Assembly (NCBI RefSeq): GCF_009834535.1
Contig: NC_045696.1
Coordinates: 86,182,001-86,246,000, forward strand
Origin: Camelus ferus
Taxonomy: Eukaryota
DNA length: 64,000 bases
Direction of reading: 5' to 3'
In this document: piece after piece, positions 19,840 through 60,284 of the stretch
Position numbering within the stretch: position 1 is the first letter of the stretch
Layout: each line of letters starts with the position of its first letter
Program-made: the position numbers and the translations under genes
Notes under the pieces: generated by a model
Seen by the model: only the letters and a program-made list of their open reading frames with translations
Database searches by the model: none
What the model was told of the DNA's origin: nothing

Positions 19840-22010
19840 TTTCTCGAGAGAGAGAAACTGACTTTCCAGTGTCCAATTTTTTGCATTGGTATTTCTGCAG
19901 AAAATCAACTTTATATATGTAAGTTATTTTCTAGATTCTCTATTCTCTTCCTTTGATTTATTTATCTATCCTTTGCTAATGTCTCAAGTGGTATAGCATG
20001 CCAGTAAGTTCTGAAGTCACATCATATTCTTACTCCAATTTTGTTATTCTTTTTCAAAGAAGTTTCAGGAGTCATTCTAGGTCCTTTGCATGTAAGTTTT
20101 TAAATTAGCTTGTCAAATTCTATAAAAAGAGCCTGACAATTTTGACTGGGGTTGAGTTACTTCTATAGATTACTTTGAAAAGACTGATACCTTAAGCTAC
20201 TGAGTCTGCCGTGTTTTATATGATATGTAGCACAGTTTTTATTAAATGCATGTCTAAGTGCTTTATGGTTTTTGATGTTATTATACTTTTTAAATTTCAT
20301 TTTCATTTTTTGCTTTTATTTAGAAATACAGTTGATTTAAATTTAAATTGTTTGTATACTTTTAAATTTACAGAAAAGTTTCAAGGATCATTCAAAGAAT
20401 CCTTTACCAGATTCTTTTATCCAGAATCCTTTACATTTTCCCCCCATATGTTTTCTGAATTTTTCCAAATAATTAGAGAGTAAATTAGAGATAACTTTGC
20501 CACTTTCCCTGAAATAATTCAGTATGTGCTTCCTTAGAACAAAAACACTCTTTCATATGACCACAGAGCAATCTTCGAAATTAGATATCATAGATACAAT
20601 GCTATTATCTAAACTCAGTCCATTCTCCTATTTTGTGAATTGTACCCCCATTAATGCCCTTAATGGCTGTTTGTTTTCATGATCTAGGATCATGCATTAC
20701 ATTTAGGTGCCATTTATTTTTAGTCTCATTTAACCTGAAATACTCTCTCTCTTAACCTTGACATTTTAACTGTACAGACTACTACTTTTCTTTCTTTTCT
20801 TTTCTTTTCTTTTCTTTTCTTTTCTTTTCTTTTCTAAGAATGTGTTTCAGTTTGGTTTTCTCTGAAAATCCCTTATGATTGAATGCAGGTTACGCATTTT
20901 TGGCAGAAATACTACATAAATGATTTTATGTTCTTCTCAGAGTATGATATCAAGAAACATGATGTTGGCTTGTCCCTATATTTGTACATGTAAAAAATTA
21001 AATCACTTGTTTAAGACAGTGTCTGCCAAGTCTCTTTACTGTTAATATTATTTTTCCTGGTAATTGATGTATTTTGTTGAGGAATATTTCAAGGCTACAT
21101 AAATATAGCTATTTTGAGAGTATGTAAATACCCTGTACTTCATCAAATATTCACTAACTAGTTTTAGGATCTACTAATAACTTTCTACTTCCATTATTTT
21201 TTCATCATTACCAATTGACATTCTACTCTAAGAAATAGTTTTTTCTTTTTTTTCCTATTTGTTTATGAACTTATTTCTATCCAGATGGACTCATAGAGTC
21301 TATGTTTCATCTAAGGGGTTATAATTCATTGTGATCATTATTTTGGTGTTCATGTGTTCCAGATACGACCAGCAGGAATCCTTCAAGCTGGTTCTCATAT
21401 TATTTAGGTATGATTCTTCGTTCTTTCAGAGCTCCTTTACTTTTGGATATAATGAGATTTCCCAAATTCATCTCATACATTCCAGCTCTGGAAGCAACCT
21501 TTTCTCCAAAGCGTCCTGGTTTCTTTTAGTAAGAATTGGAATTTAAAAATCAGAATCTAGGTTCTCTGTATATTCATTGCTAATGGTATATTCTTGCTTT
21601 TAGGTCTGTGCTGTCAAAAATAATAGCCATTAGCAAAATGTAGCTATTTTAATATAAATAAATATTTATTACAATTAAATATAATTAAAAGTAAGTTTCT
21701 CAATCATACTAGTCACATTTCAGGTATTTAATAACCAAATGTGGCTAGTAATGTGGTTGACAGCACATATATAAAACATTTCCACCATTATAGGAAAATT
21801 CTCTTAGATGATGCTATTCTAAACTCAGTGCAAAAAGATTGAAGATGAATACACACACATGTAACACACACAATAAACATACTACATATGTAGCTATGAT
21901 TTCAGAATTCCTACTAATACTTCAATTACAAGGTATATCCTAATTTGCCCCTTTCAAATGTTTAAATTCCTATCTCTAATAGTGAAAATCCCATCTCCTG
22001 TGATCCTTGA
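19840..22010 (-). mobile_element. Old L1 fragments (ORF2 remnant plus L1MC-type 3' UTR)
   Basis: 'ctaggtcctttgcatgtaagtttttaaattagcttgtcaaattct' and 'ggttacgcatttttggcagaaatactaca'. Contains (TTTTC)n at about 20785-20835. Confidence 0.65.
21606..21816 (-). mobile_element. MER3 (hAT-Charlie MITE)
   Basis: 'ctgtgctgtcaa..tagccattagc..ctagtcacatttcaggta..atgtggctagt..acatttccaccattataggaaaattct'. Confidence 0.75.
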
Positions 22011-22019
22011 TTCTTTACA

Positions 22020-23530
22020 CTGGTATCTGCACATTTGAGTAATGGGACTCCTTTCCCAGACTTTACAGGTTTGCTTTGAGACAGTTCACAGGTCATCTTA
22101 GTTTGGGTTTCTGAGGGTGTCTGGTGGTAAAGTGCTTGGGCAGGTGGAGCTTGCCATTATGGTCTATTTGGGGTCAAGGCAACTGGTTGAGCTTTGAGGA
22201 TGGAGATGAGGAGGTGTGCCACTAGCTGAAAAAGTTGGACAGGACTGCTGATTCGGGTCCTGCCCAAGTGATGCTGGAGGGTGAGCTCCACAATTCCGAC
22301 AATCTCTGGTCAAGCATCCTGGGTGGTGGACTCTAGGTACTATGCTCAGTGGTGAGTAGGACTGTGAATAAGAGTCCCTGCTCTGGCAGGTGAGCATGTC
22401 AGTGCCCAGGCCCTGTACAGCTTATTGTCTGAGGGCCCCAATCAGGCCTAAGTGTGTACTGAATTCCTTGGCCAGGTGAGGCCACCTGTTTTGCTCTGCT
22501 CCGTGGGCTATGCTCCAGGGCTACTTTCCATAGCTCTGTTGCATGAGTGGCCTGGCTTTCCGTGCGCCCTGGTTAGGTTCCCTGGCTGGCCAGGCTGAAG
22601 ACTGTGTTCAGAGATGAGCAGCCACACAGATTAGGTTCCTTGCCTGGGCACAGCTGAAGAGGCACCTCTAAAACCGGTAAAGCTCTTGGTTTGTTATCTT
22701 AACTCAAGTTGATTCACACTCCAAGTTCCCTGGTCAAACAGGGCCACTGGATTTGCTGCACAAATGATCAGTTCTGTCTGCCCTTCCCTCAGCTTGGGCA
22801 CTGCTGGATACAACAGCTTCCAGGAATTGTTACCAACCTTTCTGGTCACATGAGGCTAGAAATCATTCTCCACAGTGGGTGGAGGTGTGACTCAACACCT
22901 TGTCTGAAGTTGGTCAAACCAGGCTCTAGGGCCAGAATAACTCCTAGTTTGAGGATCCAAATCAGGCAGATCTGGACCTGCCAAGTTTCCTGATTGGAGT
23001 GCACCACTGACTTGCTTCTGAGTATGAGCAAAGCTGCTGGTTGTGATTACTACTTGGGCACTGCGGGTAGGAACTTAGGTCTGCTAAGATCCATGTGCTG
23101 CTGGTTGCAAGCCCTTCTCACCTTCCTCCTCAGAGTCAGATTTCCGGTAACTGGGACCCACAGATTCTCCTGCAGTCCCTGTGGTGCAAGATCAGAACAG
23201 GGGCTCCCACAAAACGACTCAGAATTCTCGGGGAGGCTGGTTGTCTCCCTTGGGTTTTCGTTTCCCCCGGAGGAACCATTGGCTTAGGGAAGACCTCTCT
23301 GTGTGGTGCCACACTGTCCTGGGGGAGAGCAATGTGGTCAATGTGAAGTCACTTGTCTTCTCCTTCTAATGCAGTCTTTCTTGGTCTGTGTGGCGAAGAG
23401 AGATGCTTCAGTTTTACCCCCACATTCTAGGAGTCCTTCGGTAGTATCTTGTTTTTGAACACGTTAGTTGTTATTCTTGTGAGGGGGAGCAAGAGCAGGA
23501 ATGACCTACGTGGCCATCTGGGTGATCTCT
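22020..23530 (-). mobile_element. L1M2/L1M3-type 5' UTR (GC-richer)
   Basis: Ends 'gttattcttgtgagggggagcaagagcaggaatgacctacgtggccatct', the recalled antisense 5' terminus of L1M2/L1MA-type elements with a YY1-like agatggc. Confidence 0.75.
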
Positions 23531-55167: not shown

Positions 55168-55989
55168 TACATACTATATATTATGTAATATAAACTCTAT
55201 ATTATATAATAGTGACTATGTCAGGTGATTTTTCTGTTTCTCTGATCTATTTTTGTTAGTATTATATCAACATTTTCTTTATTCTTGTTTATAATTGCAT
55301 GTTCTAATACCTATAGGAATAACACCTATTTTTTCTTCTATTAATGTTTTTGAGATTACTCTCAATTTTTCTTCTATATAAAGTTTCTACTATTTGTAAA
55401 GTTAAAAGAAAATCCTCAAAACTATTTAATTAAAATAGATTGGAATTAATTTTGAAGATACTTATTTCTTTATGTTTTTCATATGCATATATGCCTCCCA
55501 TGTGTTTGTAATTTTTGCTTCTATTTTCTATGTTTCATATGTGATATTGCTCTAGTGTCAGAATATATAGACATATAGATAGATACAGACTTAGATATAT
55601 TCACAAATATCTTACCATCTATATTGTCAGGGAATATTCATTCCTGATGACTGACAGAGAAATGATATACATATAAACAAATAGATACAATATTACATGG
55701 TATATGTAATTACAAATGTATATGGAAAGTGCATAAAAGGTATTGTACATAGAGGCAGTATAACAGACTGTGAAATCAGAAAAAGTTTGAATTTCATGCT
55801 GTCTTTACTACGTCCTAACTTTGTAATATTAGGTAAGTTTTTAAATCTCTTAACCCTCAGTTTTTTCAACTCATATAACATTAGTATAGTAATATAATGT
55901 GTATAGAGTGCATAACATGGTTTTATGAATGCATGCTTTAAAGGTAGCAATGATGATGCAGATGATAATGACGACAGTGATGATGGTGA

Positions 55990-56460
55990 TAAAGGTATCT
56001 AAAAAGTGAGTTGCAGTTATATGCAATCTATATTGCTTTGTAGATAGCAATAAAGACTAGGGATTGGTTTTGAAAAATAAGAATATTCCAGATAAAAGAA
56101 GGTACACTTAGCATACAGAATAAAGGCTAGTCAAGGGCTGTAAGTTTACATAGCCTATATGAGGGGATGTTGGGTAGCTACGAGATGGCAATTTGTACAG
56201 TGGTCAAATGGAGTACGAGCAAAGGGCATGGAGATATCATATTTTTGTTTTGGAAAGGTAACGTACATGGCGGTGTGCAATGTGGATTTAAAAGAAGAAA
56301 ATTCTGATAGGGAGTTCTGTTAAGAGACTACAGTATTGAAATAACCCAGGAACGGAGGTGAACTGGAGCCTAAATTATTTGTCAATTATACCTCAATAAA
56401 GTTGGCACGACTCCTGAACTGGAGTGTTGGTAAATAAAACAGAGGAGAGAGAAAAACAGG
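55990..56460 (-). mobile_element. L2 fragment, left of the GC-rich block
   Basis: Purine-rich L2-like sequence 'gggagttctgttaagagactacag..cctgaactggagtgttggt..gaggagagagaaaaacagg'. Confidence 0.55.
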
Positions 56461-56499
56461 TACCTGCCGGAGGTTAGGTTTCCCAGACGTACCACACCT

Positions 56500-56690
56500 G
56501 TGGCTCGAATTCTAAAGCACGCCAAAGCTGTGCGCCTGCGCAGTTCCATCTTTCGCGGCTTGTTGCCGTTTCCGCTTCGCCGGCAGGATTTATCCTCCAG
56601 CCTCTCTTCTGCTTCTCCGGCTCAGCGCTCTCCTGTCTTCTCGGAGCTGATTTTACATCGTTCTGAGTTGAGAGAGAAGGAGGGTAAGTC
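56500..56690 (+). promoter_or_regulatory. CpG-rich promoter / candidate first exon with 5' splice donor
   Basis: NRF1 TGCGCCTGCGCA (56531-56542), YY1 CCATCTTT (56546-56553), E2F-like TTTCGCGG, ETS-like TTTCCG. CpGs are retained in a CpG-depleted window. Donor AGG|GTAAGT at 56683/56684. Confidence 0.65.
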
Positions 56691-56696
56691 TACAAA

Positions 56697-57997
56697 ATGG
56701 CTTTGGTTTGGGTGCTGTGGCTTTCTATCTCCAGTACTCTTGGGCTTCTGCAGAGGAAACGGCGCTGATGCTCAAGCGGGGCTGTGTGAGCCGGCCCCCC
56801 CTCCGTAGGCGCCGGCCGCCCTCCCTAGGCTCCGGGCCCACGCTTCTCCCTCCCCCGGTTCGCCCAGGCCTTGGTGGAGGGTGCACCATCAACTGCTGGG
56901 TGGGAACAGTGAAGTAGAAGAGGGGGATGTGGGGAAGGCAGCGTCTCCAGCAGGCCCAGCCCTGGCAGCCTCAGAAACAAGGGCTCCGGTGTTCCCTCGC
57001 ACTCCCTGGGCCCGAGGTACCACCTCTGGGCCAAGGCCGCCTTCTCAGCCCTCTGTGCCTGCGTGCTCTGTGGACCAAGACTTGGGCAAGACCAGTGGAG
57101 CCCAGCAGTTCACATTGGGAGATGGCACCTTGGACTACCTGGCAGGAATGATGCCCTCTGCCACCCAGTGCCGGGACACCAAGTCTGGGCCCTCTCGGTG
57201 GAGATGGGCCTGGACATCCTGCTCTGGTGGCTGGGCGCTTGGTGGGAGTACCATGCCTCTCGGTGACTCCCGCACCGCAGTCGGCAAGATTATTTGGGGT
57301 GTCTGCCAGGCGGTGGTTTAGTGGCTGGGTCCCTGCCATGTGCGGGCTTCCTTCAAACGGGTGGGTCTCCGGGTCTCGGTGGCCGCTTTCTGTAGCCCTA
57401 CAAGGCGTCTCCAACTGGAAGGGCCCCATTCTGGCCCTCAGGGATTCCATCTTGTCCTACTGTGAAGTGGAGGGGACTGGTACTCATTGGTTCTGCAGGC
57501 TGTGGTTGTCTGGGAGGTCCTTTTTAGAGTCAACACAGGCTGGCCTGGGGGTGCCACCCACCACTGCCACCATCACCAGGTACACTACCACCCAGGACAT
57601 CAGGGTTGGCTCGTGGGTGGCCTAGACTTGGAGGCATGTTGTTTGCAGGAGCATAGAGAGTAATTGTACATGGAGGTCAGACTAACCACTGCTCCCGTGG
57701 TTGATGAAAACCCTTTGCAGGTGAGCTAGGAGCATCGCAGGTGTGGCAAGGATTTAATCTGGGCTCTTGATTAGCCCTGGATACCGCAGGTAGTTCTTGT
57801 TGCCGAGGAGCCGCTGGTGTAGCCTTTGTGAAAGGAAATGACACAGCTGTGACCCACCCCCACTCATTTCTGCCTACTTCACCTGTAATTGTATATGAGG
57901 ATGAAGAAGAAGGCTGCGGGAATGGGTGGCTCCACTGGACTGGAAGAGGGAACTGGAGCAGCCAGGGTACTCAGAAGAAGAGGAGGAAGGGAGGCGA
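56697..57997 (+). pseudogene. PIF/Harbinger transposase-derived (DDE_Tnp_4, HARBI1/ALP1-like) gene, frameshifted
   Basis: Stitching + frames gives collinear family motifs: RYHLWAK..DQW..QQFTLGDGTLDYLAGMMPSATQCRDTK/VWALSVEMGLDILLWWLGAWWEYHA/SRTAVGKIIWGVCQAVV../ALQGVSNWKGPILALRD..SY/GDWYSLVLQAVVVWEVLFRVNTGWPGG../SD*PLLPWLMK/PFAGELG..FN../RSRWCSL/KGND..ISAYFT..EDEEE..EW..LEQP. High GC3 in these frames. Candidate start aaaATGG at 56697. Confidence 0.85.
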
Positions 57998-58824
57998 GAC
58001 AAGGATTGGTGGGGATACAGTACTTGGAGGGTAGGAGTGAGGGATGAGAATTGAGTACCTGCTTGAATCCAAAGCTGAGCTGTCCATAGGGGAATGAAAG
58101 GAGCAGTGGGGATGGGCACCATCATAGCCCCTCTGGACTTTAATTTTGTTGGAGTTCAGGACAGAGATGCCCCAGGCCTGCAGAAGTTAAAGATTGAGAG
58201 GGTCACAAGACCACAGCTGTGCCATCCAAGGTTTTCTGTTCCCTTCCTCCTCGCCCTGTATTTGTCCCCTTCTTTACTCTTCCTTCTTCCCTTCTAAAGC
58301 ATAGCAGGAGGCCTCATCCTCTTCCCCTTATGTCCTCCACTGTCTTTTAGCTTTACCTCTCCTCCACCTGGGACTGGGTCCAGAACTCGAATCTCAGTCT
58401 GGGCTTGGAGCTGGACACAGAGCTGGGAACCATTAGTCCTAGTGTAGTCTCCTATCGGCGCCTTGGGGACTGGGCTAGGACTTAAAGAGGGTGGAGGTGG
58501 GCTTGGATTGGGGGAACTGGTGGAGGATCCTTGGCTGGTGGCAGTGCTTTTGCTTGGTGGATGAACTGCGGCATTTCCATGTCTGTTGGTGGTAGCAGGA
58601 TTGTGAGTGGCTGTTGTGGACTCATGGCAGTGGTGCCTATTGTAGTTCCAAGTGGTGGTTCTGTGGCTCTTGGTAGTTCTGTGGCTGTTCTAGGGCTTCG
58701 TGTGCTTTCTGTAGCTGTATATGTCACCGTGAAGGATGGTGGCAGAGTGGCTGATTTTTTATGACGATAGTCATTCCTTGTCCTCTGAGCTTTCAGCAGG
58801 AGAAAGACTGGTTGGCAACTCAGG
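57998..58824 (-). pseudogene. CD68: Unspliced CD68 (macrosialin) gene fragment: intron 1 end, exon 2 (58357-58789), intron 2 (58178-58356), exon 3 (58059-58177), intron 3 start
   Basis: Translation AQRTRNDYRHKKSATLPPSFTVT..TEST / SHRTTKSHRTTT..TTATHNPATT..HGNAAVHP..PPPPSLSPSP..IGDYTRTNGSQLCVQLQAQTEIRV..GGGE | AWGISVLNSNKIKVQ..GAHPH / LLSFPYGQLSFGFKQ matches recalled CD68. GT-AG boundaries are intact. Both exons carry frameshifts. Confidence 0.93.
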
Positions 58825-59020
58825 GCAAAAATAAACAAGTAGGACTACATCAAAGTAAAAAATTTCTGCACAACAAAGGAAACAATTAACCGATTGAAAA
58901 GGTAACCTGGAATAGGAGAAAATATTTGCAAACTGTATGCCCCATAAGGGGTTAAAATCCAAACTATATAAGGAACTCATACAACTCAGTATCAGAGAAA
59001 CTAATAATACAATTAAAAAC
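58825..59020 (+). mobile_element. Internal L1 ORF2 fragment fused to the CD68 piece
   Basis: 'gcaaaaataaacaagtaggactacatcaaag..tctgcacaacaaaggaaacaat..gagaaaatatttgcaaac..tataaggaactcatacaactca'. No 3' UTR or poly-A. Confidence 0.9.
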
Positions 59021-59023
59021 AGG

Positions 59024-59400
59024 AAACTGTTTAGAGGAGGAAGAAAAGATATACAATATAAGGAAGAACAGATTTTCTAAAAATGGCTGTAAGATGTAGT
59101 GGCTTTAGAAAAGGATTTGGGATTTTATAACTAGTAATTACTAGCAAGAGCAGTTTCAGTGCAGTTGTAAGAAATAAAGGCAGATTCTAATATGGTGAGT
59201 AATTAATGTAAGTAATGAGGGGGAGAAAAAGTGGACTTTTTTTTTAATGTTGGGTATTAAAAAGATAAAAGAAAATTGATGGGATTGTTTATATTAAGAA
59301 CCTTAAGGATGTTTAAAGCCTGCAAGGAAGGTGTCAAAAAGGAGAGAGGGGAGGAAGGAGAAAAGGGTAGAGGAAAGAGAGGAGAGAGATATTAAGATAC
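59024..59400 (-). mobile_element. L2 fragment, right of the GC-rich block
   Basis: 'gcaagagcagtttcagtgcagttg..ggcagattc' is a typical antisense L2 motif. Confidence 0.55.
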
Positions 59401-60284
59401 TGTCTTAAAAGTTTAGGTGTTTCACTTAGATGAATTTCACTTTTACAAAGTATAAGAAACCTATGGCATTAGGTTTCCAGGATTTAGACTAAGTCAAGAC
59501 CCAATGCCCTTTATTAAAAATCTTGAAATTTCTGTAATCTCTTATGCATAATAAAAGATAAAACTTGGGTGAAAAAAAGAAAATGCTACACAAGAAAAGA
59601 TTAGTAACTTGTTTAAAATGCCAGTTCCTAGTAACATTCCGATTTATAACTTCTGGATTGTAATTAAAGAGTTTACATTTTAATACTAAAACAGGCATTA
59701 GTTTTTAAGATTGAATGTAATTGTAATATCCAAACCCATTTTTATTATTAATAGCAGTGAGGAAGTTTTATCTGTGTTAACTTTCAAAAGTCATTAATAC
59801 ATCTTTCAGATATACTTAGAATCTGTGTGTGTGTATACATATATATAAGAATATATATATTATTATATCAAATATATAGACATTTAAATATATACACTAG
59901 AATATATATATAAACAAGAATATTCTGATATACATACACATATATGTATATATTATATGTATTCAGTATGGGGTCACCTCTTTGTGGAGAGAGATGGGGC
60001 AAATGTGTAGGGGCGCACAGAGAACATCATCCGTTGTTTTTTTCCCCCTAATTTATAAGCTGGGTGACAGTACATGAGTTTGATTTGCTACTTAAAAAGA
60101 AAACAAACTCTACCCATACTTTATATGTTTTTGTATATAATTAAAGAGTTGAAGGAAAAGTCAAATTGAATATATACACTGTCATATATCTTCTCAAGAT
60201 ATGGGCATTTACAAGATATAGATATCATGATACCAGTAGAACAAGACAAAGTAGTAGCTCTTTATCAGAGTTTTGTGTTTGAAA

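What the first reader, a model, noticed from the sequence alone, without database searches (positions are those of the whole stretch)
57998..59020. Intron-retaining CD68 fragment fused to an L1 piece truncates the Harbinger-like gene
Seen: antisense CD68 exon 2, a 179-nt GT-AG intron and exon 3, with partial flanking introns. It joins directly to an oppositely oriented internal L1 ORF2 fragment with no poly-A. The Harbinger-like frame ends at 'YSEEEEEGRRD' where the insert begins and does not resume afterwards. Knowledge: processed pseudogenes lack introns and end in poly-A, and CD68 normally lies in the gene-dense EIF4A1-MPDU1 region. Inference: capture of pre-mRNA or genomic DNA during break repair (endonuclease-independent insertion or L1 template switching) with deletion of the target's 3' end. 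It could be the inactivating event or a datable marker after it.
Basis: partly seen in the sequence, partly recalled or inferred. Interest (0 to 1): 0.72.

Follow-up and report, generated by a model that had tools for sequence, protein, structure and literature searches.

The report
Antisense CD68-Harbinger retrocopy fused to L1
A dead transposon-like gene and a backwards, intron-containing piece of the immune gene CD68 sit side by side here and also at a second place in the same genome, so they were most likely copied together as one block, probably from an antisense RNA by the LINE-1 machinery, rather than CD68 landing in and breaking the gene.

Summary
The anatomy is real: antisense CD68 exon 2, 179-nt GT-AG intron, exon 3, then a tailless L1 ORF2 piece. 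The reading 'CD68 inserted into and truncated a Harbinger gene' is wrong. In 2 of 2 DNA runs laid, one paralogous contig carries the Harbinger-like sequence and, 1,311 nt further on the same strand, the CD68 piece: they are neighbours at the source locus. The junction is a ~1.28-kb internal loss. The whole block 56467-59014 (CpG-rich leader, Harbinger fossil, antisense CD68, L1) lies between 15-nt direct repeats (13/15; chance about 0.5%), so no target deletion is needed. Best model (inferred): one old L1 insertion, primed at an internal A-tract, that switched to an antisense read-through RNA of the CD68-MPDU1 interval; introns survive because they are on the other strand. The Harbinger frame already carried a frameshift shared with the source locus. 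Copy and source differ by 15% or more. The side result is the more interesting: a Harbinger-transposase fossil beside CD68, where humans have MPDU1-AS1, not found in my literature searches. The scan holds no look-alike of this DNA; an unchecked note describes a similar antisense exon-plus-intron retrocopy (NPNT) in this genome.

The parts
56452..56466 (+). Left copy of the candidate 15-nt target-site duplication
   Evidence: 13 of 15 identical to 59015-59029, the only + strand match within 2 mismatches in the window besides the right copy; coincides with the GC change point 56457, support interval 56391-56484
56467..56696 (+). CpG-rich promoter-like leader carried inside the insertion
   Evidence: 16 CpG in 231 nt, observed/expected 0.95 against 0.13 for window 1-55900; homology to another organism's contig is shown only from 56646 on (P0025); that 56467-56645 comes from the source locus is inferred from its place inside the repeats
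56697..57997 (+). Decayed Harbinger/PIF-type transposase frame (copy of the fossil that neighbours CD68 at the source locus)
   Evidence: Aligns to PF13359 proteins from L015/L016 over 57165-57941; source contig matches 56956-57967 in pieces at 82-96%; loose end continues the likeness to about 57997 (21 of 30 letters, counted by eye); start codon at 56697 is a reading from the sequence, not tested
57998..58002 (.). Internal junction: about 1,276 nt of the source (Harbinger 3' end and, by inference, CD68 exons 4-6) are missing
   Evidence: Joint 57967 to 58003: 35 letters in the window, 1,311 in the source contig, in X3 and X9
58003..58058 (-). 5' part of CD68 intron 3
   Evidence: Follows the exon 3 donor; matched by the source contig, 11 differences over 58003-58083
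58059..58177 (-). CD68 exon 3, frameshifted
   Evidence: tblastn to P0007/P0008 in two frames; boundaries
58178..58356 (-). CD68 intron 2, 179 nt, GT-AG
   Evidence: read-through match to P0005
58357..58789 (-). CD68 exon 2, frameshifted
   Evidence: tblastn in two frames; boundaries
58790..58815 (-). 3' end of CD68 intron 1; join to L1, possibly with a few letters of overlap
   Evidence: Acceptor at 58790; extent judged by eye against the intron-1 read-through of P0005; overlap not shown
58814..59014 (+). Internal L1 ORF2 fragment ending at an A-tract, no poly-A
   Evidence: 69% to another L1 copy at 27846-27650 whose frames read as ORF2; likeness stops at 59013
59015..59029 (+). Right copy of the candidate target-site duplication
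   Evidence: Begins 2 nt after the independently found L1 end

Best explanation
The block 56467-59014 matches a second locus where the Harbinger-like sequence and CD68 are neighbours, and it is likely one old L1-mediated insertion copied from an antisense read-through RNA of that locus. Steps: (1, shown) Harbinger-like sequence and CD68 lie tail to tail on one source contig; (2, inferred) an RNA from the CpG promoter at the MPDU1 side ran through the dead Harbinger frame and on across CD68 in antisense, so CD68 splice sites were never used; (3, inferred) L1 endonuclease nicked an A-rich target, the T-rich end primed on an internal A-tract of an L1 RNA, about 200 nt were copied, and the reverse transcriptase switched to the antisense RNA at CD68 intron 1 and copied it to its 5' end; (4, shown as sequence, inferred as TSD) second-strand completion left a 15-nt duplication; (5, shown as a gap, timing unknown) about 1.28 kb between two purine-rich stretches was skipped during copying or deleted later. 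The copy encodes nothing; it may still be transcribed from the inherited CpG leader.
For: Source contig with both parts in the same order and strand in 2 of 2 DNA runs laid. A 32-letter piece at 58054-58085 has depth 37 and 152.5 against 15.2 and 81.4 for the source contig, about two copies per genome. P0009 is the source ORF: 52 of 55 residues after applying the differences against 30 of 52 for the window. Direct repeat 13/15 at two boundaries found independently; 0.5% of arbitrary anchors have such a match within 25 nt. L1 end coincides with the A-run that opens the repeat, as described for tailless retropseudogenes (PMC5322556, passages). All CD68 splice sites unused; L1 in the same sense as the Harbinger frame; 15 of 17 human mRNA/lncRNA-L1 chimeras are same-sense (PMC13174262, section 13). 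The 5' end of the block falls about 230 nt before the putative start codon, in a CpG island. Human has a transcript antisense to MPDU1 and CD68 (PMC11603882, table row). In RNA run X15 the copy's contigs start at 56654 and the source's contig starts 296 nt before the 56956 match, the equivalent place.
Against: The strand of the template is not shown: contigs carry no strand, and the one raw-read RNA run gave 1 read. The human antisense RNA overlaps CD68 by only 137 nt, whereas the model needs read-through to intron 1. The cut site reads AG/AAAAA, not TT/AAAA. About 190 nt upstream of the apparent RNA start are inside the block, which needs an upstream start. Published mRNA-L1 chimeras mostly have near-full-length L1 with poly-A; this has neither. 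The full source sequence was not obtained, and that it is the working CD68 locus next to MPDU1 is inferred. An empty-site test inside the window gave nothing convincing (best across the join E 0.068).
Confidence: 0.5

Rival explanations
1. Twin priming: the same single insertion, but the second nick primed on a sense, unspliced read-through RNA running from CD68 (or the gene upstream) towards MPDU1, so that RNA lies opposite to L1.
For: Horse has MPDU1_CD68 read-through transcripts (PMC9602388, passages). It explains why the promoter-like leader is inside the block. Antisense-oriented mRNA/L1 chimeras are ascribed to twin priming (PMC13174262, passages).
Against: Needs intron 2 and parts of introns 1 and 3 unspliced in an RNA already 2-3 kb further on; the left end falling just upstream of the Harbinger start would be coincidence; CD68 is a macrophage gene, not a germline one (recalled).
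Confidence: 0.17
2. Cis read-through: an L1 once sat in CD68 intron 1 on an allele since lost; the antisense RNA ran into it and was primed at its internal A-tract, with no template switch.
For: Gives the same order and orientation; the lost-allele model is discussed for human chimeras.
Against: Intron 1 is short and L1-free in the one unspliced CD68 ORF seen (26 codons in P0005); needs an extra unobserved allele.
Confidence: 0.12
3. DNA-templated capture: the end of an L1 cDNA invaded the CD68 locus and copied genomic DNA before the insertion was closed.
For: Explains introns, promoter and absence of poly-A without any RNA; no splice event in the block is shown.
Against: Does not explain why the block ends near a transcript start; 3.6 kb of source span is long for such a capture (own judgement).
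Confidence: 0.13
4. Plain segmental duplication with an unrelated adjacent L1 scrap; the direct repeat is chance.
For: The repeat has 2 mismatches and a non-canonical cut site; the window holds 4 matches on both strands where 0.53 were expected, so A-rich 15-mers recur.
Against: 0.5% chance at the boundary; L1 end and GC step both meet the repeat.
Confidence: 0.06
5. One reading: a CD68-L1 piece was inserted into a resident Harbinger-like gene, deleting its 3' end.
For: The frame does stop at the junction and does not resume.
Against: Both parts are neighbours on one source contig at similar divergence (15-18% and 14%); it would need the insert to land by chance in a copy of its own neighbour.
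Confidence: 0.02

Closest known systems
mRNA/lncRNA-LINE-1 chimeric insertions (PMC13174262; passages and section 13 read, Table S5 not read)
   Same: Cellular RNA 5' of an L1 piece inside one target-site duplication of about 15 nt; same sense if the template was the antisense RNA; 5' piece begins near a transcript start.
   Different: There L1 is mostly near full length with poly-A and often joined at a splice site; here it is a 200-nt internal, tailless piece, and the cellular part keeps another gene's introns in antisense.
Tailless retropseudogenes by internal priming (PMC5322556; passages)
   Same: No oligo(A); 3' end at an internal A-rich site that matches the start of the duplication.
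   Different: Those are single-RNA copies; target consensus TT/WAAAAWW is met only in part (AG/AAAAACA).
Retrocopies that inherit a parental promoter (PMC4772013; passages)
   Same: Parent-like CpG-rich sequence upstream of the apparent transcription start; about 3% of expressed retrocopies in that study.
   Different: The parent here is a dead transposase-like frame or lncRNA, not a coding gene; transcription of the copy is suggested by unstranded contigs only.
HARBI1 and other Harbinger-derived vertebrate genes (PMC9392472, PMC5753468; passages)
   Same: Single Harbinger-type transposase frame fixed in a mammalian genome.
   Different: Broken in the window, in the source and in other homologues; sits beside CD68; no named HARBI1 among the 7 hits; CD68 and MPDU1 do not occur in the main text of PMC9392472.
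Human MPDU1-AS1, ENSG00000233223 (PMC11603882; one table row)
   Same: Antisense to CD68 and MPDU1, the position and direction of the source Harbinger frame.
   Different: Overlaps CD68 by 137 nt only; sequence homology to the camel fossil was not tested; 'Harbinger' does not occur in that paper's main text.

Membership tests
Processed pseudogene of CD68 | Introns removed | tested here: not met
   Intron 2 whole, parts of introns 1 and 3 kept
Processed pseudogene of CD68 | Poly-A at the CD68 3' end | tested here: not met
   CD68 part ends in intron 3 and joins the Harbinger frame
L1 TPRT insertion / RNA-L1 chimera | Target-site duplication around the whole chimera | tested here: met
   13/15 direct repeat at both boundaries, chance about 0.5%; no outgroup empty site seen
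L1 TPRT insertion / RNA-L1 chimera | Endonuclease motif TT/AAAA | tested here: inconclusive
   AG/AAAAA at the left repeat; the site is old enough to have changed
L1 TPRT insertion / RNA-L1 chimera | Poly-A tail and L1 3' end | tested here: not met
   L1 likeness stops inside ORF2 at 59013
L1 TPRT insertion / RNA-L1 chimera | Cellular RNA in the same sense as L1 (template switch or ligation) | tested here: inconclusive
   Same sense as the Harbinger frame, opposite to CD68; template strand not shown
Tailless retropseudogene | 3' end at an internal A-rich site that matches the target | tested here: met
   L1 end at 59013 runs into the five A's that open the repeat
Endonuclease-independent insertion with target deletion | No duplication; flanking DNA lost | tested here: not met
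   Candidate duplication present; the 1.28-kb loss is inside the copied block
Harbinger/PIF transposase (PF13359) | Homology over the HTH and DDE region | tested here: met
   Score 95 and 69 against two PF13359 proteins, shuffles max 48 and 54 of 40 each; direct Pfam scans of the broken frames found nothing
Harbinger/PIF transposase (PF13359) | Open frame with intact catalytic motifs | tested here: not met
   5 frameshifts, 5 stops; first and last catalytic motifs not aligned as identities
Harbinger transposon (mobile element) | Terminal inverted repeats and a Myb-like second gene | tested here: inconclusive
   No inverted pair bracketing the frame among the 25 longest of 103 shown; the source locus, where they would lie, was not obtained
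HARBI1 retrocopy | Closest relative is HARBI1 | tested here: inconclusive
   7 hits among 1.84 billion representatives, none with a name or a transposase domain; the query was one broken frame and no HARBI1 sequence was on hand
Orthologue of human MPDU1-AS1 (source locus) | Synteny and sequence homology | not testable with these tools
   No mammalian genome held; two scans for mammalian CD68 DNA in metagenome contigs were empty

The most novel reading that the evidence does not exclude
The source locus is a second domesticated Harbinger transposase gene of vertebrates, distinct from HARBI1, that lay head to head with MPDU1, lost its frame early in placental mammals and survives as the lncRNA MPDU1-AS1; the camel insertion is a fossil of its long antisense read-through RNA, brought its own CpG promoter into a gene-poor region and is still transcribed in reproductive tissue, making RNA complementary to CD68 exons 2-3.
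Probability: 0.25. Interest if true: 0.7.

Novelty: new variant of a known kind. Interest (0 to 1): 0.45.

Why it matters
It shows how an intron-retaining 'pseudogene' can arise without genomic capture: the template RNA ran on the other strand. It joins three known but uncommon features in one event (RNA-L1 chimera, tailless internal priming, inherited promoter) and gives a presence/absence marker for camelid history. It also points to an overlooked Harbinger transposase fossil beside CD68; Harbinger transposons are described as absent from mammals apart from a few domesticated genes (PMC9392472, passages), so a second, lost transposase gene under a human lncRNA would be of real interest and is directly testable by synteny.

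Tried and rejected
Own first idea, an 11-nt repeat at 57979 and 59033 as the duplication around CD68+L1 only (D18): rejected, because the source contig continues across 57979. Own second idea, that 56684 is a splice donor of a host gene whose intron holds the insert: dropped, because P0025 aligns colinearly from 56646 to 57238 (first 60 residues score 51, shuffles max 42 of 200) and the region lies inside the repeats. Pfam on broken frames: 0 relevant families in 10 and 8 queries. Word-based protein searches with P0002 and P0004 178-292: no hit. Plasmid blastn and tblastn: nothing meaningful. Motif scans of viral contigs: 0 and 12 loci, none a transposase; of 6 genome-contig loci 4 gave long transposase frames, 2 used (L015, L016), 2 near-duplicates and 2 short frames left out. 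Atlas look-up of P0009: one hit at 0.76, uninformative. Rfam 55500-60000: 0. Empty-site search within the window: inconclusive. Raw single-cell RNA run X24: 1 read in about 1% of the run, no evidence either way. A canonical splice at the 1.28-kb gap could be neither shown nor excluded. Literature searches that found no description of this locus or of a Harbinger fossil at CD68/MPDU1: 10 papers, listing only; 16 listed; 3; 1; 1, unrelated by title and abstract start; the library lacks most subscription papers, and no supplements were read.

Full report
Setting. No genome is held for this window. The window is AT-rich (GC 0.25-0.41 per kb) apart from 22-24 kb and 56-59 kb. Other notes of the scan call the genome camel and place IFT80 2.8 Mb and GBE1 56 Mb away (unchecked); in human those genes are on another chromosome than CD68 (recalled).

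Observation. On the minus strand lie CD68 exon 2 (58789-58357), a 179-nt GT-AG intron (58356-58178) and exon 3 (58177-58059), with the end of intron 1 and the start of intron 3. Named macrosialin proteins match both exons, each split over two frames. An unspliced CD68 ORF from another organism, P0005, matches through the donor into intron 2 (94 of 161 identical), so the spacer is CD68 intron 2. The next 200 nt on the + strand match another L1 ORF2 copy in the window at 69%, ending at 59013, without poly-A. The upstream frame is Harbinger-like: Pfam misses it, but a frameshift-aware alignment to two PF13359 transposases taken from genome contigs scores 95 and 69 against shuffle maxima of 48 and 54 (40 shuffles each), covering residues 48-318 of 352 over 57165-57941 with 5 frameshifts and 5 stops. 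The last 45 residues are not found after the L1 (236 and 240 of 300 shuffles score as well).

The region is real DNA. Of 24 runs listed, 14 DNA or unlabelled runs of two organisms hold 0.98-1.00 of 310 sampled words, 9 of them flagged as possible source; 2 RNA runs hold 0.82-0.84. Four runs were laid on 56400-58821. An RNA-library contig spans 56999-58085 with 3 differences, bridging the Harbinger-CD68 join.

The deciding result. At 80% likeness, both DNA runs gave one other contig (13.6 and 15.9 kb) that matches 56956-57967 and then, 1,311 letters on and on the same strand, 58003-58083. The Harbinger-like sequence and CD68 are therefore tail-to-tail neighbours at a second locus. A 32-letter piece at the exon 3 donor has about twice the depth of that contig (37 against 15.2; 152.5 against 81.4), fitting two copies per genome; the simplest reading is that the contig is the native CD68 locus, though its CD68 exons 4-6 and MPDU1 were not seen. 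The window has 35 letters where the source has 1,311, so the 'insertion junction' is an internal loss of about 1,276 nt; the source's loose end keeps matching to about 57997 (21 of 30 by eye). Pooled difference is 119 of 774 letters (15.4%, Jukes-Cantor 17%), a floor because only pieces above 80% were counted; with a recalled rate near 2e-9 per site and year this is some 40 million years, a rough inference.

The Harbinger frame was dead before the copy. P0009, the best of 7 hits among 1.84 billion representatives, is the source ORF: 52 of 55 residues agree after the differences are applied, 30 of 52 before. In the window, P0009, P0010, P0012 and P0021 the GWPG-type motif and the following DIR-type motif are in different frames (read), a shared lesion. 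The organisms behind P0010-P0025 are unnamed, and their position next to CD68 is not known.

True boundaries. P0025 aligns colinearly from 56646 to 57238, so the CpG-rich 5' part belongs to the same unit. GC steps up at 56457 (support 56391-56484) and 56467-56697 has CpG observed/expected 0.95 against 0.13. A 15-mer at 59015-59029, two letters after the L1 end, recurs with 2 mismatches at 56452-56466. Allowing any of 21 start positions on the right, 0.5% of arbitrary anchors have such a match within 25 nt. Two mismatches in 15 fit the age. Against it: the cut reads AG/AAAAA, A-rich 15-mers recur more than shuffles predict (4 against 0.53), and no empty site was seen.

Mechanism. A duplication around the whole block, with L1 at the 3' end stopping at an A-run that opens the duplication, is the signature of target-primed reverse transcription with internal priming (PMC5322556, passages). 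The rest needs a template that holds leader, Harbinger frame and unspliced CD68. An RNA in the Harbinger direction does so naturally, since CD68's splice sites are then on the wrong strand, and it puts L1 in the same sense, as in 15 of 17 human mRNA/lncRNA-L1 chimeras (PMC13174262, section 13). Human has a transcript antisense to MPDU1 and CD68 (PMC11603882, table row), although it overlaps CD68 by only 137 nt. In run X15 the copy's contigs begin at 56654 and the source's at the equivalent place, hinting at a shared start; these are unstranded contigs, DNA carry-over is possible, and no silent control stretch was laid. Inherited promoters are known for about 3% of expressed retrocopies (PMC4772013, passages). 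I put about 0.92 on one block from one source, 0.8 on one L1 insertion, and 0.5 on the antisense template switch in particular.

Novelty. Each ingredient is known; the combination in one event is an unusual variant. Searches found no account of this locus or of a Harbinger fossil at CD68/MPDU1; PMC9392472 and PMC5753468 (passages) name only HARBI1 as transposase-derived. Supplements (such as Table S5 of PMC13174262 and Table S2 of PMC9602388) were not read and may bear on this. Verdict: observation largely real, interpretation to be replaced; interest 0.45, carried mostly by the source-locus fossil.

Noticed in passing
window 56669-56706 (records 2, 6, 9): A third contig (3.5-4.1 kb, single-copy depth), separate from the CD68-linked source, matches this stretch at 31 of 38 and keeps some likeness beyond it (about 21 of 29 with one gap, by eye). 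It may be another paralogue of the Harbinger-like gene's 5' end; it is also present in RNA run X15.
   Followed up: no
source contig, equivalent of window 56660-58120 (record 3; P0009 cluster): The source Harbinger fossil appears as a 1,444-nt contig in a reproductive-tract RNA library, and its 284-codon mixed-frame ORF P0009 is on record from 14 short contigs; it may be a transcribed lncRNA.
   Followed up: partly
window 56467-56697: CpG observed/expected 0.95 has survived an old insertion in a 33% GC region while the CD68 part fell to 0.15, which suggests an unmethylated, possibly active orphan promoter.
   Followed up: partly
window 57555-57600: An ACC-type repeat of varying length lies between two transposase motifs in the window and in P0009, P0010, P0012, P0021, always leaving the same frame offset.
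   Followed up: partly
window 55990-56451 and 59030-59420: Both flanks are purine-rich on the + strand (0.62 and 0.65) and look like consecutive parts of one old L2 element (recalled likeness, no library on hand); about 56346-56405 looks like a short L1 3' end.
   Followed up: partly
L015, L016, L017, L018: Four contigs of bacterial metagenome-assembled genomes carry eukaryote-type Harbinger transposases (PF13359, for two of them), probably host DNA binned into the assemblies.
   Followed up: no
window 22000-23500: A second GC-rich stretch (0.45-0.51) that looks like an antisense L1 5' region (recalled likeness).
   Followed up: no
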